A stretch of DNA of 64,000 bases, taken from positions 229,851 to 293,850 of the IMG/VR virus record IMGVR_UViG_3300027804_000038. One strand, 5' to 3'. The first letter of the stretch is position 1. The number at the start of each line of letters is the position of its first letter. Shown here piece after piece: positions 4,005-37,980 of this stretch. The position numbers were made by a program, and so were the translations under genes. A model generated the notes under the pieces. It made no database searches and was not told the origin of the DNA. It saw only the letters and a program-made list of their open reading frames with translations. The DNA comes from a virus. Its lineage: Duplodnaviria; Caudoviricetes.

Positions 4005-4080
4005 GACTTCGTAGCTCAGCTGGTTTTAGAGCATCGCACTTTTAATGCGAGGGTCATGGGTTCGAGTCCCATCGGGGTCA
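4005..4080 (+). tRNA. tRNA-Lys(TTT)
   Basis: Cloverleaf, TCGCA-CTTTTAA-TGCGA. Confidence 0.92.
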
Positions 4081-4090
4081 CTTTTTATAC

Positions 4091-4174
4091 ACGTCAGTGG
4101 CTGAACGGCTTAGGCAACGGTCTCCAAAACCGTGAACATTATGTTCTACGTAGGTTCGAATCCTACCTGGCGTG
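4091..4174 (+). tRNA. tRNA with CCA (Trp) anticodon and a long variable arm
   Basis: ACGGT-CTCCAAA-ACCGT, V-arm GAACA-TTA-TGTTC, G73. Confidence 0.75.
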
Positions 4175-4427: not shown

Positions 4428-4501
4428 GGCCCCTTAGCTCAGTGGTAGAGAGCGATTGTATTACAAACAATAGGTCGTGTGTTCGATTCACACAGGGGCT
4501 A
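4428..4501 (+). tRNA. tRNA-Val(TAC)
   Basis: ATTGT-ATTACAA-ACAAT. Confidence 0.85.
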
Positions 4502-4507
4502 CTCTAA

Positions 4508-4579
4508 CCCGATGTAATTCAGTGGTAGAATACTTGATTCATATCCAAGCAGTCGGTGGTTCAATTCCACCCATCGGGA
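4508..4579 (+). tRNA. tRNA-CAT (elongator Met or Ile2)
   Basis: CCCGATG/CATCGGG, loop TTCATAT. Confidence 0.8.
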
Positions 4580-4634
4580 CAAAAAATATTTGGTGATACA
4601 ATAATCTAATTGTATATTTGTACTTAAATTATAT

Positions 4635-4710
4635 GGGGTGATAGCGCAGGTGGTCAGTTCGCGTCGGTCTGAAAAACCGAAGATGTGTGGTTCAACTCCC
4701 ACTCACCCCA
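4635..4710 (+). tRNA. tRNA-Phe(GAA)
   Basis: TCGGT-CTGAAAA-ACCGA. Confidence 0.9.
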
Positions 4711-5023: not shown

Positions 5024-5082
5024 AAAGAGGAACGACTCAGTGTAGGAGCCTCAGGGGACTGCAGCCCCACTACACTCTATAT

Positions 5083-5153
5083 TGTCCTGTAGTGAAATGG
5101 CATCACTCGACTTTTTGGCAGTCGCATTTCTGGTTCGAGTCCAGACGGGATAA
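5083..5153 (+). tRNA. tRNA-Gln(TTG)
   Basis: CGACT-TTTTGGC-AGTCG, U1-A72. Confidence 0.85.
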
Positions 5154-5169
5154 CTAAAAAATTAAAACT

Positions 5170-5565
5170 ATGTTAAAAGAAAGAATCAATGCCGACTTTA
5201 TGTCCGCATTTAAAAACAAGGAAACTGAAAAGAAAAACTTTTTGGGTGTGGTTAAGGGTGAGATTCAGAATGAGGAAGGTCGCTCTGGTGTTGCTAACGA
5301 TGATGTGGTTGTTGCGATTTTGAGAAAGATGGAAAAATCTTTAACTCAAACTGGAACACCTGAAGCATTAAAGGAATTGGAATATATCAAACCATATCTT
5401 CCATCTCAAATGGGTTCAGATAAAATCCGTGAAATTATCTCAAACTATAAAACCAATGGTCTAACCAATGTCGGTCAGATTATGGGTGAGTTCAACAAGA
5501 ACTTCAAAGGTCAAGCAGATAACAAAATCGTATCAGAAATCGCAAAAGAAGTTTTGGCAGGTTAA
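5170..5565 (+). CDS. YqeY/GatB-domain protein
   Basis: MLKERINADFMSAFK..., IKPYLPSQM, GQIMGEFNKNFKGQAD. Confidence 0.8.
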   Translation: MLKERINADFMSAFKNKETEKKNFLGVVKGEIQNEEGRSGVANDDVVVAILRKMEKSLTQTGTPEALKELEYIKPYLPSQMGSDKIREIISNYKTNGLTNVGQIMGEFNKNFKGQADNKIVSEIAKEVLAG

Positions 5566-8358: not shown

Positions 8359-8436
8359 GGTGTCTATAGTGTTAGCGGTCTAGCACGAAGGGTTGTGGTT
8401 CCTTTAGCACCAGTTCGAATCTGGTTAGACACACCA
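8359..8436 (+). tRNA. tRNA-His(GTG), G-1, CCA encoded
   Basis: AAGGG-TTGTGGT-TCCTT. Confidence 0.88.
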
Positions 8437-13343: not shown

Positions 13344-14969
13344 ATGGCTAAATTCAGAAACACAGGATTAAAAGAGAAGTTGGACTCTACAAAACCAAAG
13401 AAAAATCTCGTCGCAAAAATGTCGGTTCCTAAACCAAACACAACTAACCTACAAGGTTATGAAGCTTATGATATCGATAATTGGCTACGACTAATCTCAC
13501 TGTTAAACACATCAAAACTTCAACCACAATTTTATCGTTCAGAGAATGATACAATGCGTGAACTGAAGAAATTAATTGATGTATGTGGTAAAGAAGACCC
13601 ATACTTCGCGGCACAGTGTATTGTATACTCTCGTTGTGTCGGAGAAGGTATGCGTTCAATCAACCACTTGGCGGCCGTTTACTTGGCACCATATATGAGT
13701 GGTAAAGAATGGTCAAAACGTTTCTTCTCCGTATGGGATAAGAAAAACCAAAAAGGTGGAACGATTTTCCGTCCTGATGATATGGCAGAAATCGTTGCGG
13801 CATATACTGCGATGAATGATAAGAGTATCACAAACGCAATGAAAAAAGGTTTCCGTGAAGCACTTGAAAAAATGGATGCTTATAGTCTGTTAAAGTACAA
13901 ATCGGCAGTACTTGACATGATTAATTTGGTACATCCAGACCCAAATGAATCAAAAGCTCTTGTTGATTACATGGATAAAAAAGTACCAGCGTTCGAAGCA
14001 ATCATTAAAGGGTATAATGTATCTGCGGATACTTGGGAAGTTGCACAATCTGACGCAGGTCAAATTGTTGCACAAGCGGTTCGTGAAGGTAAACTCTCAG
14101 AATCAGAAGCTAAAGAAGTATTAACTGAACAAAAGTCAGAAAACTGGAAAGGGTTATTGACTGAAGGTAAGTTGGGTATTTTGGCCGCTATTCGAAATAT
14201 GAGAAACATTCTTACCAACAAACCTGAGGCGAAAACAATTGACACTCTGTGTGATTTGGTTTCAAATCCTGAATTGATTAAAAAAGGTAAGATTATGCCA
14301 TACCAACTTGACTTGGCAAATGAAGTAATGAACTCTGAGTTTAGTGATACTAACTCAAGAAAGTTGTCAAAAGCTTTATTGACAGGTTATGAGTTGGCGG
14401 TTCCGAACCTTAAAGAACTACTTACAGGTAACAACCTTGTAATCATTGATATGTCAGGTTCTATGGACACTGAAGTACTTGACCCTAACAGAAAAACAAA
14501 TTACAAGAGTACTTGTATGGATAAAGCAAGTCTAATCGGAATGACAATTGCTAAGGCGACAAATGCAGATGTTATCCGTTTCGGTTCAAGTGCTGAGTAT
14601 ATTACTTATAACCCTAACCAAGATGTGTTCAGTTTGGCAAAATCTATCCGTAAAGGAATGGGTGGTACAAACTTGTCACAAGCTTGGGCGAAGGCTCAAA
14701 GTTCAGGTAGAAAATACGACCGTGTTTTTATCTTGTCTGACAATGAGTGTAACATGGGTTCAACATACCGTAATTATACAAGTTATGTTGAAAAGGTTGG
14801 TGACCCATACGTATATTCAATTGACCTAGCATCTTACGGAACTACCGCAATTGCAGGACCTAAAGTAAGATACTACTACGGTTATGGATACTCAATGTTT
14901 GATGATATCGCTAAGAGTGAGTTCAACCCAAACTATCATATTGAAAAAATCCGTAAGATTGAAATTTAA
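13344..14969 (+). CDS. rsr: Ro60/Rsr ribonucleoprotein (TROVE plus vWA)
   Basis: 541 aa; TROVE-type N-terminus (LNTSKLQPQFY, G-M-R-S), vWA IDMSGSM, GGTNLS, VFILSDNE, YSIDLASYG. Confidence 0.85.
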   Translation: MAKFRNTGLKEKLDSTKPKKNLVAKMSVPKPNTTNLQGYEAYDIDNWLRLISLLNTSKLQPQFYRSENDTMRELKKLIDVCGKEDPYFAAQCIVYSRCVGEGMRSINHLAAVYLAPYMSGKEWSKRFFSVWDKKNQKGGTIFRPDDMAEIVAAYTAMNDKSITNAMKKGFREALEKMDAYSLLKYKSAVLDMINLVHPDPNESKALVDYMDKKVPAFEAIIKGYNVSADTWEVAQSDAGQIVAQAVREGKLSESEAKEVLTEQKSENWKGLLTEGKLGILAAIRNMRNILTNKPEAKTIDTLCDLVSNPELIKKGKIMPYQLDLANEVMNSEFSDTNSRKLSKALLTGYELAVPNLKELLTGNNLVIIDMSGSMDTEVLDPNRKTNYKSTCMDKASLIGMTIAKATNADVIRFGSSAEYITYNPNQDVFSLAKSIRKGMGGTNLSQAWAKAQSSGRKYDRVFILSDNECNMGSTYRNYTSYVEKVGDPYVYSIDLASYGTTAIAGPKVRYYYGYGYSMFDDIAKSEFNPNYHIEKIRKIEI

Positions 14970-15004: not shown

Positions 15005-15153
15005 ACTCAGGTGGCGAAAGTGAGAACATTCTAGATAATGACTCCTGGTAGACGTAACATATGGTTATAGCAATGTGGGTTAAAAATCATCTGAACAAGA
15101 TGTGGTCACTATAATGGCAGCCCGTGGAGGTTCGAATCCTTCCCTGAGTACCA
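15005..15153 (+). ncRNA. 149-nt expanded tRNA mimic next to Ro60
   Basis: ACTCAGG/CCTGAGT-A-CCA, GGAGG-TTCGAAT-CCTTC, split D arm GGCGAAAG...GGTAGACG. Confidence 0.7.
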
Positions 15154-16134: not shown

Positions 16135-16617
16135 ATGAATAACGAAATCAAATACAAACCAACAAAAGAGGCGATTATTGGATATAGTGATTCTAAAATT
16201 GCCCAAAGCGAAACAAACGATTGTGTTGTTAGAGCAATTGCGTCGGCTTTTGAAATGCATTATGATGAGGCACACGACTTTGTTGCAAGTAATTGGTTTC
16301 GTAGAAATCGTGAGGGAACAAGAAACTTCATTGGAGGTATGCGTAGTATGGTCGACAAAGGAGTTTTAATTAACGGTAAATCATTTTCCAATTTGGGTGA
16401 CCAACATGGTCATATGAAATATGACGTTAAAGTTAAAGGTCAAATTGTTAAACGTAATATGACCACAGGAACTTTTATCAAAAAATTCCCAAAAGGTCGA
16501 TACGTTGTGGTTGTTCGTGGACATGCTTTCTCAATCATTGACGGAGTTGTTGTTGGTAATACAGGTGATGCTAAAATGAAGAAGCGTGTTATTTTGTATT
16601 CTTGGAGAGTTTTATAA
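16135..16617 (+). CDS. Conserved phage hypothetical protein
   Basis: NDCVVRAIA, VVRGHAFSIIDG. Confidence 0.65.
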   Translation: MNNEIKYKPTKEAIIGYSDSKIAQSETNDCVVRAIASAFEMHYDEAHDFVASNWFRRNREGTRNFIGGMRSMVDKGVLINGKSFSNLGDQHGHMKYDVKVKGQIVKRNMTTGTFIKKFPKGRYVVVVRGHAFSIIDGVVVGNTGDAKMKKRVILYSWRVL

Positions 16618-16714
16618 TAAAAATAAGATTTTACTTGACAAGAGTATATTTATAACTTACCTTTGTCAAACAATTCAGTAAAGACTGAAACGTTCTTTGA
16701 AAAATTAAAAAAAT

Positions 16715-16853
16715 TGACGTAGTAAGAATAGAGTTACTTCGCATATTGGTTCGAATCCAATATTTGCCGCAATTTTGGCAGATTAGACAAATGGATAAGT
16801 CGACGGTCTCATAAACTGTTATAGAAAAACAACCTCTACTCGTTTTCTCGTCA
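16715..16853 (+). ncRNA. Carrier RNA 1 enclosing a circularly permuted tRNA(CAT)
   Basis: Order is T arm, 3' acceptor, linker, 5' acceptor, D arm, anticodon arm, inside TGACG/CGTCA and TAGAG/CTCTA stems. Confidence 0.85.
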
Positions 16854-16860
16854 TAAAATA

Positions 16861-16994
16861 TTGATTGATAGTAATAGATAAGGTTACTTCGTAAAATAGC
16901 TCAATTGGATGAGCATTTGTATCAGGAACAAAAGGATACGGGTTCAACTCCCGTTTTTACAACCAAAAAAACCTTCCTAACTTTCTTCAATCAA
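16861..16994 (+). ncRNA. Carrier RNA 2 enclosing an unpermuted tRNA(CAG) with CCA
   Basis: TTGATTGA/TCAATCAA and AAGGTT/AACCTT stems; cloverleaf 16890-16965. Confidence 0.82.
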
Positions 16995-17001
16995 ACTTAT
17001 T

Positions 17002-17133
17002 ATCAGATAGTGAAGAGACAGTTACTTCAAATTTTTCTGGAACAAAAAAGGCTCGGGTTCGAATCCCGACTCCTCTTCGGGGGATGTGGTGTAGCGGTAG
17101 CACTAGATAACACTGTTTCTATTTTCTTCTGAT
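17002..17133 (+). ncRNA. Carrier RNA 3 enclosing a permuted tRNA(GGA) with UUCG-capped acceptor stem (YrlA-like topology)
   Basis: ATCAGA/TCTGAT and AGAGACAG/CTGTTTCT stems; order is anticodon arm, T arm, closed acceptor, D arm. Confidence 0.82.
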
Positions 17134-17138
17134 TAAAC

Positions 17139-17222
17139 GCCGAGGTGATGAAAAGGTAGACATGACAGACTTAAAATCTGTTGGGCAGTTCGCCCGTGCG
17201 GGTTCGAATCCCGCCCTCGGTA
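17139..17222 (+). tRNA. tRNA-Leu(TAA)
   Basis: ACAGA-CTTAAAA-TCTGT, long V arm. Confidence 0.92.
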
Positions 17223-17231
17223 CTAAAACAA

Positions 17232-17306
17232 GCCTCCATAGCTCAGCAGGTTTAGAGCGACTGATTTGTAATCAGTAGGTCGTTGGTTCGATTCCGACTG
17301 GAGGCT
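17232..17306 (+). tRNA. tRNA-Thr(TGT)
   Basis: ACTGA-TTTGTAA-TCAGT. Confidence 0.92.
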
Positions 17307-17317
17307 CTAATATATAT

Positions 17318-17392
17318 GCTCGGTTCGTCTAGACTGGTCTAGGACACTACCCTTTCACGGTATAAACACGGGTTCGAATCCCGTACCGAGTA
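17318..17392 (+). tRNA. tRNA-Glu(TTC)
   Basis: TCGTCTAGACTGGTCTAGGAC D arm, loop CTTTCAC. Confidence 0.9.
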
Positions 17393-17395
17393 CTA

Positions 17396-17481
17396 AATGA
17401 AGTAGTAAGGATAAGAGTTACTTCGCAAATTACTTTTAATGATTCAAGCAAAAACAAACTCTTTCCAACGTTCTCTTCATT
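17396..17481 (+). ncRNA. Carrier RNA 4 enclosing an isolated Lys(TTT) anticodon stem-loop
   Basis: AATGAAG/CTTCATT and AAGAGTT/AACTCTT stems; AATTA-CTTTTAA-TGATT. Confidence 0.78.
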
Positions 17482-17486
17482 AATTT

Positions 17487-17571
17487 GGGAGTGTCACCAT
17501 AGCGGCGATTGGCCCGCACTGTAAATGCGGTACCTAAGGTTCCATCGTAGGTTCGAGTCCTACCGCTCCCA
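17487..17571 (+). tRNA. tRNA-Tyr(GTA)
   Basis: CCGCA-CTGTAAA-TGCGG, long V arm. Confidence 0.9.
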
Positions 17572-17572
17572 C

Positions 17573-17787
17573 AAAACACGACGAAAATAGGATTAAAGCT
17601 CCTGTTATCACGACACCAAGATACGGTACGAGTGCGCGCTTAATGACTGTTGCGGTGAGGAGGGAATAAGTAGGGTTTAGCTAACCCAATTACGAAAACC
17701 TCATAACAAAAATAAAGGACCACCAATCTCAGGTGGTGTAATAAAATGTTTGGGTCGGATGTGGATAATGCTTCCACGCAGTGTTTT
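17573..17787 (+). ncRNA. Candidate structured ncRNA at end of RNA operon
   Basis: Terminal stem AAAACAC/GTGTTTT encloses several hairpins; GC-rich, no long ORF. Confidence 0.45.
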
Positions 17788-23958: not shown

Positions 23959-24033
23959 GAAGAAGTAGCTCAGACGGTAGAGCATAGGGTTAGAAATCCC
24001 TTGTGCCGCGAGGTTCGATTCCCGCCTTCTTCA
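23959..24033 (+). tRNA. Atypical tRNA with 8-nt anticodon loop (TTAGAAAT)
   Basis: GAAGAAG/CTTCTTC, canonical D arm, bulged T stem. Confidence 0.65.
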
Positions 24034-28526: not shown

Positions 28527-29258
28527 ATGTTCAAGTTCTATGAGGTCGGAGGTAAAATAAGAGACGAAATCCTTGGTTTAAAATCAAAGGATGTTGATTA
28601 CGTTGCGGTACCAAGTGACGAGTTAATTAATGATATTAGCTCACCTCATTCTATGTTTGGAATACTCGAAGGATTTTTAAAAGAAGAAGGTTTTGAAATA
28701 TTTTTAATTACACCTGATTGTTTTACGATTAGAGCCAAGTTTCCCCAAGGGCATACATACGAAGGTGTTGCTGATTTTGTAATGGCGAGAAAGGAATTGG
28801 GATATATTCCTGGCACAAGAACTCCATTGGTTAAACCAGGAACTCTATACGATGATTTGGAAAGACGTGACTTTACATTAAACGCATTGGCTAAAGATTC
28901 AGATGGAAACATTATTGATTTCTTTGGTGGTGAGGATGATTTGAAACATGGTATGTTAAGAACACCACTAGATTGTAAAGTAACTTTTGATGATGACCCT
29001 TTACGTATTTTGAGAGCAATTAGGTTTTCAATTACTAAGGGATTTACTATGTCTAGAAAGATAGTTGAAGAAATATACATCTACGACTACGACAATAAAA
29101 TGTCTGTAGTATCTACAGAAAGAATCAGAGAAGAGCTCCTCAAGTGTTTTAAACATGACACGATTAAAACATTAAACACTTTGGAGGAGTTTTACAGATT
29201 AAGAGATTATATCTTTAAAAACAATATTTTGTGGTTAAAACCAACTTTAGAAAAATGA
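28527..29258 (+). CDS. cca: tRNA nucleotidyltransferase (CCA-adding / poly(A) polymerase family)
   Basis: VGGKIRDEILG..KDVDY, DLERRDFTLNALA, DDPLRILRAIRF. Confidence 0.9.
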   Translation: MFKFYEVGGKIRDEILGLKSKDVDYVAVPSDELINDISSPHSMFGILEGFLKEEGFEIFLITPDCFTIRAKFPQGHTYEGVADFVMARKELGYIPGTRTPLVKPGTLYDDLERRDFTLNALAKDSDGNIIDFFGGEDDLKHGMLRTPLDCKVTFDDDPLRILRAIRFSITKGFTMSRKIVEEIYIYDYDNKMSVVSTERIREELLKCFKHDTIKTLNTLEEFYRLRDYIFKNNILWLKPTLEK

Positions 29259-34373: not shown

Positions 34374-35528
34374 ATGAAAATGATGGAAAATAATAATTCA
34401 GTGTGCTATGTAGCACGTATTGACGAAATTAAAGAAATACCTGGCGCTGATAACATTGTACAAGGTGTTATTGGAGGATGGAATTGTATTATTCAAAAAG
34501 AACAATACCAAGCTGGCGACTTAGTAGTTGTTGCAACTACAGATGCGGTTATTCCTTTAGATTTATCTGATGCGATGAACGTGACTAATTATTTACGTAA
34601 AGGTCAACGTGTACGTACTGTTAAGTTGAGAGGTGTTTATTCTGAATGTTTAATCATTCCTTTAAAATACGCTCGTGAAGTAGCTAAACATGCTAACACA
34701 AAATGGGATGAAGGTGAAGACATGATGGATGTATTAAAGATATTTAAATACGAACCACCTGCAGTACAAATACAATTATCTTCAGGTAAAAAGGTAAGAT
34801 ATCACCAAAACCCGAACTTCCATGTTTACTATAAGTTCCCAAACTTGAAGAATGTTGCAGGAATGTTTACCGAAGAAGATACTGTTGAAATTACTCGTAA
34901 AATTCACGGTACAAATGCTCGTTATGGGATTGTTAAGAAAACTAAATTAACATTATGGGATAAGTTTAAGAAGTTTATTGGATTGGCGGATAAATGGATT
35001 GAGTATGAGTATGTGTATGGTTCTCATAATGTTGAAAAGGGGTCCGACTCACAAGGGTTTTATTCAACTGATGTGTGGAGAGAGGTTGCTGACAAATACC
35101 AAATCAAAAAGAAGTTATGGGATTATGTTAAAAACAACGCTATGGAACCAGAAATTGGAGATGGGATTACAATATACGGTGAAATCTATGGTGCGGGTAT
35201 CCAAAAGAACTATGAATACGGTTTAAATGATATTAAATTTGTGGGGTTCGATGTTAAAGAAAACGGAGAGTATTTAAGTCCTATTAATGCTAAACTACAG
35301 ATTAAATATCTTTTAGAATTGCCATATGTCGAAATCTTACATTTCGGAAAATGGTCTCAAGAGGTACAAGACAAATATACATTTAATAACTTTATTGAAG
35401 GTACAAAAGTACCACATGAAGGTATTGTGATTAAATATGAGTCGGGTGGACGTAATAAAGTGGCAAAAGTAATCAACCCAGATTATTTAATTTATGCTGA
35501 AAAAAAGGATGTTGGGGACTCTCACTAA
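34374..35528 (+). CDS. RNA ligase, DRB0094-like with N-terminal OB domain
   Basis: EIPGADNI, motif I KIHGTN, YGEIYG, FDV, EGIVIK, KVIN. Confidence 0.88.
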   Translation: MKMMENNNSVCYVARIDEIKEIPGADNIVQGVIGGWNCIIQKEQYQAGDLVVVATTDAVIPLDLSDAMNVTNYLRKGQRVRTVKLRGVYSECLIIPLKYAREVAKHANTKWDEGEDMMDVLKIFKYEPPAVQIQLSSGKKVRYHQNPNFHVYYKFPNLKNVAGMFTEEDTVEITRKIHGTNARYGIVKKTKLTLWDKFKKFIGLADKWIEYEYVYGSHNVEKGSDSQGFYSTDVWREVADKYQIKKKLWDYVKNNAMEPEIGDGITIYGEIYGAGIQKNYEYGLNDIKFVGFDVKENGEYLSPINAKLQIKYLLELPYVEILHFGKWSQEVQDKYTFNNFIEGTKVPHEGIVIKYESGGRNKVAKVINPDYLIYAEKKDVGDSH

Positions 35529-36321: not shown

Positions 36322-37980
36322 TTGGAATGTTTATTGGATATCTTGCAACTAAACACATGTTTGAAAAAGAAAATGATTGAAAAATTAATTAAAAATAGAA
36401 CTCCATATCTAGGTAAGATGATATTGAAGTTTGAGAAATACCCTCACTATACAAGTAGTCAGGATGGTAAATTAAATAAAGTTCACCTTAATTTATGGTT
36501 TACCAAATTGGTTTCTAGATTCATACCAAGACAGGTAATGGAAGGTCAGACCAATGTTGACCCTGAAAAAGTTAAGTTAATTGAAAAATATACTGATGGA
36601 GTTATTGGAACTCACAAGTGGGGAAATAATGATGAGTATGTTTTGGAGGATTCATTCCTAACTAAAGACGGAAAATATATAGGTAATATTGATACTGCTT
36701 GGTGGTATTTTAAAAACGGAATGACCGTTTGTGAAGAGTATCCACACGGAGTTGCTATTGTTTGGAATACCGCGAACTCTGATAAAACATTGATGAGTGG
36801 ACAAGATGGGATTAAAGGTTATTATGGTTATTCACATCGTGGAGGAGCTTTATTAACAATCGGGGATAGAATTTTTGATAAGGAGTATAATCCTGTTGTT
36901 GAAGATTACGATAATAAGGAGTTTAAAAAGTGGTGGAAAAAATACGCCAAGTCATATAAAAAGGGTGACGATTTTGATAGAAAACACATTTATAATGATG
37001 GAATTAAATCAGTAATACCATTTAATAAACGAGGAAAACATATTATTAAAAATTGGTCAGACGCAATGAATTCGGCAATAAACGTGTCAAAATATTTAGG
37101 ATAACATGAAAATAATACCATTCTTTAACTTAACTTGGACTGAGGACTTTAAACAAATTGCCATAGTCCCAACAATATTCCTAACTAAGAGTTATGGAAA
37201 TAGATACAATTTTGGAATTAATTTTTTATGTTTTGATTTTGGACTATGGATACTAATAAGAAAATAAACATTATTGAAGATTTAAGTAGGTATGAAGATT
37301 ATCTTACTGTTGGAAAATTAAAGAAGTTTTTGGAAGAACATCCTGAACTACCTGACGACGCAAATGTTTTAATCCAAAGGGTCGAAGATAGGTATTATGA
37401 AGAACATGGATGGGGTGTTGTTTTGAAGGAAGGTGACCATTATCACATGTATAAAGAACAGAACTATCGGATGAATGAGGAGATTAAAAGAAGAAAGAAC
37501 GGAGAACACCCAAAGTATGAAATGGAAGACCCATCAAAATTCATAGTTGAATTGGATGACTCAATGAAAGACCAATACCATCCAGGATGGTGTTGTTTAA
37601 AATATAAAGATGATAACAATTTATATATTGATTTACATTATTAGACAATGGCAACACTAGAAACACAATACTGGAACTTTCTAGAAAAGAATCCTAAATC
37701 TACGTTCACATTTGAGGAGTGGAAACAAAAATGGGCGGATGATATGAAACCATCATTTGATAAATTAAACAATCCATCAGTTGAATGGAAATTATATCAG
37801 AACTACGTAAATACTTTCATAGGACACGAAGATATCCCAAGTTTTGAATGGTTCAAACACGAATTGGAAAATAACAAAGAGTTCAGTGAGAGGTATGGTG
37901 AAACAGATTCCATATATTGTCCTGTATGTTCGGGATGTGTGATAATTGAAACTGAATCGGAGATTAAGATTATAAGATGA
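36322..37980 (+). CDS. Three hypothetical genes (36322-37104, 37246-37644, 37648-37980)
   Basis: Long ORFs with typical codon usage. Confidence 0.55.

What the first reader, a model, noticed from the sequence alone, without database searches (positions are those of the whole stretch)
16741..16823. Circularly permuted tRNA(CAT) opened at the variable loop
Seen: the order is T arm (ATTGG-TTCGAAT-CCAAT, 16745-16761), 3' acceptor strand ATTTGCC-G, 7-nt linker CAATTTT, 5' acceptor strand GGCAGAT (16777-16783), TA, D arm (GAC..GTC), anticodon arm ACGGT-CTCATAA-ACTGT. Every tRNA element is intact. Established: permuted tRNA genes are known from red algae and some archaea and mature through a circular intermediate. 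Inference: the carrier holds the two variable-loop ends together, so cleavage, ligation (RNA ligase at 34374), opening of the acceptor linker and CCA addition (28527) could yield a working Met/Ile2 tRNA. Alternatively the RNA stays as a mimic.
Basis: partly seen in the sequence, partly recalled or inferred. Interest (0 to 1): 0.85.

Follow-up and report, generated by a model that had tools for sequence, protein, structure and literature searches.

The report
Phage Y RNA shaped like permuted tRNA
The "permuted tRNA(CAT)" is real and conserved, but it is most likely a Ro60-bound Y RNA (a tRNA mimic of the YrlA kind) in a freshwater jumbo phage, unusual in keeping a complete anticodon arm, and not a gene that matures into a working tRNA.

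Summary
At 16745-16819 the order is T arm, 7-bp acceptor hairpin, UA, D arm, anticodon arm (CAU), enclosed by a two-part stem (16715-16733 with 16834-16853).

It is not chance. Twenty-eight homologues in viral contigs keep every helix with compensatory changes (covariation 0.73 against 0.23 in shuffles). The tertiary 15:48 pair also covaries (26/28).

The context decides the reading:
- A full-length Ro60/TROVE gene lies 1.75 kb upstream on the same strand.
- 24 of 28 homologous records also encode Ro60. The other four are small fragments.
- The conserved GUUACUUCG motif before the T arm recurs in bacterial elements beside Ro60 genes.

This is the YrlA class of Y RNAs, already described as resembling circularly permuted tRNAs. 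What is new is a canonical anticodon arm: U33 and A37 are kept, with 15 different triplets among the homologues. The Ro60 stem leaves through the variable region.

Maturation into an ordinary tRNA is unlikely:
- The genome has three normal tRNA-CAT genes.
- It has no splicing endonuclease or RtcB.
- There is no bulge-helix-bulge motif.
- The closest relatives seal the acceptor with tetraloops.

Opening of the acceptor loop and CCA addition remain plausible.

The parts
13344..14969 (+). Phage Ro60/TROVE protein (541 aa), presumed protein partner of the RNA
   Evidence: Pfam TROVE 25.9 bits (cut-off 23), plus Ro60 vWA. Full-length phmmer match to Thermus phage phiLo Ro60 (9l5y/9kop, E 9e-11) and a match to Xenopus Ro60 (1yvp, E 6e-4).
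16635..16665 (+). Promoter-like site upstream of the RNA cluster (TTG... then TACCTTTG, which fits the Bacteroidota -7 motif TAnnTTTG)
   Evidence: Read. The same block precedes the tRNA cluster in relatives L003-L010. This is inference, not tested.
16715..16733 (+). 5' strand of the carrier: basal stem UGACG, internal-loop motif UAGUAA (16720-16725), GA, distal stem UAGAG
   Evidence: MFE fold. Helices 1 and 2 covary in 28 homologues. U20, A21, G22 and A25 are (nearly) invariant.
16733..16744 (+). GUUACUUCG motif plus CAU. The last U (16744) acts as nucleotide 48.
   Evidence: The motif is shared by all four carriers in the window, by L019/L020 and by bacterial Ro60-adjacent elements. Column 51 pairs with column 101: U:A 15, C:G 11, other 2.
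16745..16761 (+). T arm (5 bp, loop UUCGAAU)
   Evidence: 100% of cells paired, 3 pairs with double changes.
16762..16783 (+). Acceptor stem closed by a loop: 3' strand AUUUGCC, G73, CAAUUUU, 5' strand GGCAGAU (7 bp, one G-U)
   Evidence: All 7 pairs show compensatory changes. A transcribed relative has two compensating changes and the loop U-CCA-AAAUC.
16784..16802 (+). U8 A9, D arm (3 bp, loop with A14, A15, G18 G19), G26
   Evidence: D stem 89% paired, 2 pairs with double changes.
16803..16819 (+). Anticodon arm ACGGU-CUCAUAA-ACUGU, anticodon CAU at 16810-16812
   Evidence: 98.6% of cells paired, all 5 pairs with double changes. U33 26/28, A37 26/28, and 15 different triplets.
16820..16853 (+). 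A-rich 3' linker (16820-16833) and 3' strand of the carrier (CUCUA, UC, UUUUCU, CGUCA)
16861..17481 (+). Three further carriers of the same family. E2 (16861-16994) holds a tRNA-like body in normal order (CAG). E3 (17002-17133) is opened between the D and anticodon arms, with the acceptor sealed by UUCG. E4 (17396-17481) holds a bare anticodon stem-loop (UUU). Ordinary tRNAs lie between them.
   Evidence: Model R1 scores E4 at 55 bits and E3 at 31 bits.

Best explanation
The element is the tRNA-like module of a roughly 139-nt Y RNA (16715-16853) of the YrlA class, encoded by a freshwater jumbo phage next to its own Ro60 gene. It is transcribed with three sister RNAs and several tRNAs as one cluster. 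The 5' and 3' ends pair into a two-part stem. The conserved internal loop of that stem (5' UAGYRA opposite 3' UUCUC) is the probable docking site for the phage Ro60 ring. The middle folds into a tRNA L-shape: T arm, 7-bp acceptor helix closed by a loop, D arm and a true anticodon arm showing CAU. The RNA therefore presents a tRNA(Met/Ile2) look-alike on a Ro60 handle. Most likely it engages proteins that recognise the tRNA elbow and anticodon loop, acting either as a tether that brings them to Ro60 or as a decoy in the tRNA-centred conflict between phage and host. Shown here: the structure, its conservation, its link with Ro60 genes, and its presence in RNA libraries. Inferred: Ro60 binding, the RNA ends and the partner protein. 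The acceptor loop may additionally be cut by RNase P and given CCA, which would make a two-piece RNA. I put this at about 0.35 for this copy.
For: Ro60 gene 1.75 kb upstream on the same strand. In relatives L019, L020, L028, L053, L071, L075 and L105 the homologous RNA lies within a few hundred bases downstream of Ro60. 24 of 28 homologous records encode Ro60, and the 4 without are fragments at most 19% complete. The layout T arm - closed acceptor - UA - D arm is that of the Rfam YrlA consensus and of the published YrlA description, including Levitt-pair covariation (PMC4201824; bioRxiv 10.1101/312249). That covariation is reproduced here in 26/28. The GUUACUUCG motif, which contains YrlA's conserved YUAY, recurs in Ro60-adjacent elements of Bradyrhizobium, Streptomyces, Flavobacterium, Chryseobacterium, Pontibacter and Acidobacteria. 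Strong covariation in all helices. Relatives' copies appear in rRNA-depleted metatranscriptome contigs at about ten times the depth of the neighbouring ORF (44 vs 4) and in several further runs. Phage Ro60 with Y-like RNAs is documented (PMC12135203).
Against: Binding to Ro60 is not shown. Rfam RF02553 does not hit this element; as a control it also misses 18 bacterial Ro60-adjacent loci, so the model is narrow. The published 5' motif GNCGAAN0-1G is only approximated (GACGUAG). Published YrlA lacks an anticodon loop, and its Ro60 stem continues the anticodon stem; here a full anticodon arm is present. The canonical loop (U33, A37) with free triplets, and N-CCA in 8 of 10 long acceptor loops, hint at a use closer to real tRNA biology than plain elbow mimicry. 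In this window two ORFs separate Ro60 from the RNA.
Confidence: 0.78

Rival explanations
1. Two-piece working tRNA. RNase P cuts 5' of G16777, the 3' side is trimmed to G73 and given CCA by the phage enzyme. The two pieces, held together by the acceptor helix and the carrier (which acts as a long open variable arm), are charged and used in translation or in another aminoacyl-dependent process, as two-piece tmRNA is.
For: The acceptor stem is exactly 7 bp with U at -1 and G at +1. M. smegmatis YrlA with a 7-bp stem is cut by RNase P and gains CCA in vivo (PMC4201824). 8 of 10 homologous acceptor loops of 8 nt or more begin N-CCA, and the other two (this one included) begin N-CAA. Sister RNAs have ACCA or GCCA followed by 15-20-nt A/U spacers. 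The phage's own tRNA genes do not encode CCA. A CCA-type nucleotidyltransferase is encoded at 28527-29258. The anticodon loop is canonical.
Against: The closest relatives with the identical acceptor stem seal it with UUCG, UCCG or UUCU. G73 differs from the A73 of all real Met/Ile tRNAs of the phage. The same acceptor stem occurs with unrelated anticodons. Three normal tRNA-CAT genes are present. RNA contigs run uninterrupted through the loop.
Confidence: 0.12
2. True permuted tRNA gene. The carrier is cut away, the ends are ligated at the variable loop to give a circle, the acceptor loop is opened, and an ordinary one-piece tRNA(CAU) results.
For: All tRNA parts are intact, and a de-permuted copy is called tRNA-Met by ARAGORN. 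The carrier brings the two ends together. An RNA ligase (34374-35528) and a CCA-type enzyme are in the window. Relatives without Ro60 have an ordinary tRNA-Met(CAT) at the syntenic site. The possibility is raised in bioRxiv 10.1101/312249.
Against: There is no bulge-helix-bulge: the junction has a 5-bp helix with 11- and 14-nt single strands. No splicing endonuclease or RtcB in the complete phage genome, and none is reported in bacteria. The carrier itself is conserved and tied to Ro60 genes, which is not expected for a discarded leader and trailer. The CAU decoding function is already supplied three times. No back-joint in RNA contigs.
Confidence: 0.03
3. Ro60-independent tRNA decoy. The carrier only stabilises the RNA, and the displayed anticodon loop soaks up a host anticodon nuclease or another tRNA-directed toxin.
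For: Anticodon triplets vary freely while the loop frame is kept. The sister RNA E4 shows only a tRNA-Lys(UUU)-type stem-loop, with the same loop as the phage's real tRNA-Lys. Phages carry panels of 2-6 such RNAs.
Against: Every record at least 60% complete that has this RNA also has Ro60. The carrier has a conserved internal loop, as Y RNA stems have.
Confidence: 0.05
4. Decaying remnant of a tandem tRNA duplication, without function.
For: Model R1 also hits junctions between neighbouring real tRNAs locally, e.g. 4056-4142, so dimeric tRNA genes resemble the core.
Against: Compensatory changes in every helix across 28 phages, and complementarity of the two acceptor strands maintained by double changes.
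Confidence: 0.02

Closest known systems
YrlA Y RNAs (S. Typhimurium YrlA, M. smegmatis YrlA; Rfam RF02553; Chen et al. 2014; Wang et al. 2018)
   Same: Encoded beside Ro60 on the same strand. A terminal stem carries the tRNA-like domain. The order is T arm - closed acceptor stem-loop - UA - D arm. T-loop, G18G19, U8 and A14 are conserved, the 15:48 pair covaries, and a YUAY motif precedes the T arm. Published YrlA RNAs are explicitly said to resemble circularly permuted tRNAs.
   Different: Published YrlA has no anticodon loop, and its Ro60 stem continues the anticodon stem. Here a canonical 5-bp/7-nt anticodon arm follows the D arm, and the Ro60 stem is joined through 11- and 14-nt linkers at the variable region. 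The 5' motif is UAGYRA (GACGUAG here) rather than GNCGAAN0-1G. The Rfam model does not score it.
Bacteroidota Ro60-adjacent elements (e.g. Pontibacter, locus L125)
   Same: Same five-way layout: carrier, GUUACUUCG, T arm, 7-bp acceptor hairpin, UA, D arm, then a hairpin at the anticodon position.
   Different: That hairpin ends in a GNRA tetraloop, not a 7-nt anticodon loop.
Permuted tRNA genes of Cyanidioschyzon merolae, some green algae and Thermofilum pendens
   Same: The 3' half lies upstream of the 5' half, the acceptor is initially closed, and the ends are paired.
   Different: Those have a bulge-helix-bulge cut by the splicing endonuclease, are ligated to a circle and become the cell's decoding tRNA for that anticodon. 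None of these features is found here.
Two-piece tmRNA from permuted ssrA genes
   Same: A permuted tRNA-like gene whose product could work as two base-paired pieces with an open CCA end.
   Different: No tag reading frame, no match to tmRNA models, and a different partner (SmpB rather than Ro60).
Thermus phage phiLo Yrl1/Yrl2 with phiRo60 (PMC12135203)
   Same: A phage-encoded Ro60 with neighbouring Y-like RNAs. That Ro60 is the best structural relative of the protein here.
   Different: The phiLo RNAs are described as stem-bulge-stem RNAs with a CGAA motif, with no tRNA cloverleaf reported.

Membership tests
YrlA-class Y RNA | Encoded within about 4 kb of a Ro60/TROVE gene, on the same strand | tested here: met
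   Ro60 at 13344-14969 (+), RNA at 16715-16853 (+). 24 of 28 homologous records have Ro60; the others are fragments.
YrlA-class Y RNA | Order T arm - acceptor-like stem-loop - UA - D arm, with tRNA invariant nucleotides | tested here: met
   Same order as the Rfam YrlA consensus.
YrlA-class Y RNA | Covarying Levitt pair (G15:C48 or A15:U48) | tested here: met
   U:A 15, C:G 11, other 2 of 28.
YrlA-class Y RNA | 5' and 3' ends form the Ro60-binding stem, with GNCGAAN0-1G near the 5' end | tested here: inconclusive
   The stem is present and covaries. The motif here is GACGUAG (6 of 7), and the family consensus is UAGYRA.
YrlA-class Y RNA | Conserved YUAY ahead of the variable region and T arm | tested here: met
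   UUAC within GUUACUUCG, shared with bacterial Ro60-adjacent elements. Caveat: the viral set was collected with this motif in the search pattern.
YrlA-class Y RNA | Ro60 stem takes the place of the anticodon stem; no anticodon loop | tested here: not met
   A full anticodon arm lies at 16803-16819 and is conserved in 28 homologues.
YrlA-class Y RNA | Reaches the Rfam RF02553 gathering score (69 bits) | tested here: not met
   No hit at E up to 10; sister E3 scores 15.9 bits. Control: the model also misses 18 bacterial Ro60-adjacent loci, so this test has little weight.
YrlA-class Y RNA | Bound by Ro60 in vivo | not testable with these tools
   Needs immunoprecipitation or a gel-shift assay.
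Permuted tRNA gene (red-algal/archaeal type) | 3' half upstream of 5' half, all tRNA elements present | tested here: met
   A de-permuted copy is called tRNA-Met(CAT).
Permuted tRNA gene (red-algal/archaeal type) | Bulge-helix-bulge motif at the junction of leader and trailer | tested here: not met
   The junction is a 5-bp helix flanked by 11- and 14-nt single strands.
Permuted tRNA gene (red-algal/archaeal type) | tRNA splicing endonuclease and matching ligase available | tested here: not met
   PF01974 and PF01139 are absent from the complete phage genome, with positive controls. The host was not examined. None is reported in bacteria.
Permuted tRNA gene (red-algal/archaeal type) | Joined (circular or re-ordered) RNA product exists | tested here: inconclusive
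   No back-joint in 8 metatranscriptome runs, but only contigs were available.
Permuted tRNA gene (red-algal/archaeal type) | Supplies a decoding function not otherwise encoded | tested here: not met
   Three ordinary tRNA-CAT genes and tRNA-Ile-TAT are in the same genome.
Two-piece (permuted) tmRNA | Match to tmRNA models and a tag reading frame | tested here: not met
   ARAGORN and Rfam give nothing at this site.

The most novel reading that the evidence does not exclude
In this phage lineage, Ro60-linked Y RNAs are complete tRNAs in disguise. The acceptor loop is opened by RNase P and CCA-tailed, giving a two-piece tRNA whose long open variable arm is a Ro60 handle. The anticodon, which differs from phage to phage and between the several copies in one phage, is functionally read.
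Probability: 0.12. Interest if true: 0.85.

Novelty: new variant of a known kind. Interest (0 to 1): 0.58.

Why it matters
The effector that binds the tRNA-like domain of bacterial Y RNAs is still unknown. This phage subfamily keeps a canonical anticodon loop and swaps its triplet freely. It often keeps an encoded N-CCA, and it comes in panels of several cargos on one scaffold: a whole tRNA in three permutations, or a bare anticodon stem-loop. That pattern narrows the search to proteins that read anticodon loops and acceptor ends, and it gives natural variants to test. It also connects Ro60 RNPs to the tRNA-centred arms race between phages and hosts. Finally, it supplies intermediate forms for the proposed origin of Y RNAs from dimeric tRNA transcripts.

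Tried and rejected
1. Megablast of the region against GenBank phages found nothing. Distant blastn found only ordinary tRNA similarity.
2. Rfam at gathering and at permissive thresholds gave no family for the element. Rfam YrlA also failed on 14 viral and 18 bacterial Ro60-adjacent loci, so it was dropped as a membership test.
3. Single-sequence folding energy is not better than shuffles, so it was not used as evidence.
4. Relatives found through the neighbouring ORF 16135-16617 (L003-L018) lack Ro60 and the Y RNAs. They carry an ordinary tRNA-Met(CAT) at that site, and its sequence is not similar to the permuted one beyond universal tRNA features.
5. I looked for a local hairpin within the repeated 5' motif (GUAGUAA with UUACUUC). 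It was rejected because the pairing is not kept in the sister copies, whereas the long-range carrier stems covary.
6. Metatranscriptome runs were available only as contigs, so RNA ends, CCA tails and circular joints could not be read.
7. The supplement of Chen et al. 2014 and two reviews were not held. I therefore could not check whether a member with an anticodon arm was already listed there.
8. No paper describing Y RNAs with true anticodon arms was found in four literature searches.

Full report
**What is there.** The window is the last 64 kb of a 293,850-bp virus record rated 100% complete. DNA runs that hold it come from freshwater, lake and estuary metagenomes. These are: T arm 16745-16761; 3' acceptor strand 16762-16768; G73; a 7-nt linker; 5' acceptor strand 16777-16783 (7 bp, one G-U); UA; a D arm with A14, A15 and G18G19; G26; and an anticodon arm of 5 bp with loop CUCAUAA. 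The MFE fold places these four hairpins in a multiloop closed by UAGAG/CUCUA and UGACG/CGUCA. The folding energy is not unusual (z = -1.1). ARAGORN and Rfam do not call the element in genomic order. A de-permuted copy is called tRNA-Met(CAT).

**Context.**
- The ORF at 13344-14969 is a full-length Ro60/TROVE protein. Pfam gives TROVE plus Ro60 vWA. The best solved relative is the Ro60 of Thermus phage phiLo, and Xenopus Ro60 also matches.
- The element (E1) is the first of four RNAs on one scaffold, at about 16715, 16861, 17002 and 17396. Each has a basal stem, an internal loop with UAG(U/C)(A/G)A, a distal stem, GUUACUUC(G/A), a cargo, an A-rich linker and the 3' strands.
- The stems differ in sequence between the four copies but stay complementary.
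- The cargos differ. E1 is opened at the variable region. E2 is a tRNA-like body in normal order (CAG, C1-A72). E3 is opened between the D and anticodon arms, with a UUCG-sealed acceptor, and is the only copy with a weak Rfam YrlA hit (15.9 bits). E4 carries a bare stem-loop with the loop of tRNA-Lys(UUU).

**Relatives.**
- Two viral contigs with a 72-79% identical Ro60 (L019, L020) carry the same kind of RNA set directly downstream of the gene. Each includes an E1 homologue with compensatory changes at 5 of 7 acceptor pairs.
- A pattern made of GUUACUUCG and the T arm hits 87 viral contigs. Some of these are real class II tRNAs whose variable arm has this sequence. At least 42 have a Ro60 homologue in the fetched flank.
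- Twenty-eight distinct loci have the complete E1 layout.
- RNAalifold recovers both carrier helices and the T, acceptor and anticodon arms from a plain MAFFT alignment.
- With the D stem and the 15:48 pair added, 91.8% of cells pair against 64.6% in shuffles. The covariation score is 0.731 against 0.226 (0/500), and partners slid by 1-3 columns give at most 0.18.
- The nucleotide before the T stem is U when the D loop has A15 and C when it has G15 (26 of 28). This is the tertiary Levitt pair of a folded tRNA.
- Of the 28 records, 24 encode Ro60. The four that do not are fragments at most 19% complete.
- A covariance model built from the 28 finds 2-6 carrier RNAs per locus. These include second E1-type copies with other anticodons, for example CAU and GCA in one phage on an identical acceptor stem.

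**Link to the known family.**
- Chen et al. 2014 (PMC4201824) described YrlA RNAs beside Ro60 in more than 250 bacteria and 22 phages. They have T and D arms, an acceptor-like stem-loop between them, a covarying Levitt pair and a conserved YUAY.
- Wang et al. 2018 (bioRxiv 10.1101/312249) solved the Salmonella domain. [quoted passage not shown]
- The Rfam consensus shows this layout, with the D arm running straight into the 3' strand of the stem.
- The same GUUACUUCG-plus-T-arm pattern occurs in bacterial genomes. In 31 of 120 loci it lies next to Ro60: Bradyrhizobium, Streptomyces, Lentzea, Flavobacterium, Chryseobacterium, Pontibacter, Chitinophaga, Acidobacteria and Verrucomicrobia.
- Folding these gives the classical four-way layout. 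In the Pontibacter type it gives a five-way layout with a GNRA-capped hairpin at the anticodon position.
- So E1 belongs to this class in the broad sense. It differs in having a true anticodon arm.
- Rfam RF02553 misses E1. It also misses all 18 bacterial Ro60-adjacent loci tested, so that failure says little.

**What is unusual.**
- In the 28 homologues the loop keeps C32 (21), U33 (26), A37 (26) and A38 (24). Positions 34-36 carry 15 different triplets: CAU x5, UGA x4 by alignment column (5 once the one-column slip in L038 is corrected), UAU x3, GCA x3 and others. This is the signature of an anticodon loop that is read as such.
- Of the acceptor loops of 8 nt or more found among these RNAs (the 28 aligned homologues plus the related loci L070 and L172, which are outside the alignment), 8 of 10 begin N-CCA followed by an A/U spacer. 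The other two, this window's copy included, begin N-CAA. The phage's ordinary tRNA genes do not encode CCA.
- Against that, the closest relatives with the identical acceptor stem close it with UUCG, UCCG or UUCU.

**Against maturation into an ordinary tRNA.**
- The genome has three normal tRNA-CAT genes and tRNA-Ile-TAT, all with A73. E1 has G73.
- There is no splicing endonuclease and no RtcB in the phage.
- There is no bulge-helix-bulge.
- The carrier is itself under selection and tied to Ro60.
- One acceptor stem with G73 serves unrelated anticodons.
They are ordinary parts of jumbo-phage RNA-repair kits (PMC7824862) and are not linked to this locus.

**Expression.**
- Metatranscriptome contigs match the window exactly at 16899-17113 and 17410-17582.
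- A 93% identical relative's E1-E3 cluster is assembled at depth 44, against 4 for the adjacent ORF. It recurs in four more runs.
- Its E1 has compensating acceptor changes and the loop U-CCA-AAAUC.
- All contigs are colinear with the gene.
- Contigs cannot show RNA ends, so cleavage at the acceptor loop is untested.

**Verdict.** The element is best read as a phage YrlA-type Y RNA, a new variant with a complete anticodon arm, and not as a permuted tRNA gene in the algal sense. Opening of the acceptor with CCA addition stays open. A role in translation is unlikely but not excluded.

**Earlier notes.** The scan's earlier notes on this genome had already recorded the four-carrier family beside Ro60. 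I reached the Y RNA reading before seeing them.

Noticed in passing
window 16861-16994: Carrier E2 holds a class-I tRNA-like body in normal order, with anticodon CAG, a C1-A72 mismatch and an encoded ACCA. Its homologue in L019 (7345-7420) keeps C1-A72, has compensatory changes at 3:70 and 7:66, and carries GUG instead.
   Followed up: partly
window 17002-17133: Carrier E3 has the order anticodon-like arm (GGA) - T arm - acceptor sealed by UUCG - D arm. This is a second permutation point. It gives a weak Rfam YrlA hit (15.9 bits).
   Followed up: partly
window 17396-17481: Carrier E4 has no tRNA body. Its cargo is a 5-bp hairpin with loop CUUUUAA, the same loop as the phage's real tRNA-Lys(UUU). 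L019 (about 2280) has a similar carrier with a GUA (Tyr) stem-loop.
   Followed up: partly
window 15005-15153: Thirty-six bases after the Ro60 stop lies a tRNA-like shell: a 7-bp acceptor stem, T arm and encoded A-CCA around a long, odd interior. Its predicted fold is not better than shuffles.
   Followed up: partly
L003-L010, about 4480-4650: Close relatives of the phage that lack Ro60 and the carriers have an ordinary tRNA-Met(CAT) right after the same promoter block, at the site where this window has the permuted CAU element.
   Followed up: partly
Genome-contig loci L110-L227 (many): GUUACUUCGG is also the variable arm, a C(UUCG)G mini-hairpin, of real tRNA-Tyr and tRNA-Leu genes in Sphingobacteriales and Planctomycetes. 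The conserved Y RNA motif may therefore be a relic of a class II tRNA variable arm.
   Followed up: no
window 36322-37104: The ORF matches Pfam Tad6, a type I Thoeris inhibitor (51 bits). This is a counter-defence gene in the same region.
   Followed up: no
window 8360-8433 and 23959-24033: Two Rfam tRNA hits (53 and 52 bits) that ARAGORN did not report.
   Followed up: no
G000:C1:49741-50133 (outside the window, - strand): ARAGORN calls a tmRNA gene with a 21-residue tag in the phage genome.
   Followed up: no
L013 about 5230-5360; L015 about 5045-5175: A roughly 130-nt element bracketed by GGUGGGG ... CCCCCACC sits at the head of the tRNA cluster in more distant relatives. It was not identified.
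   Followed up: no
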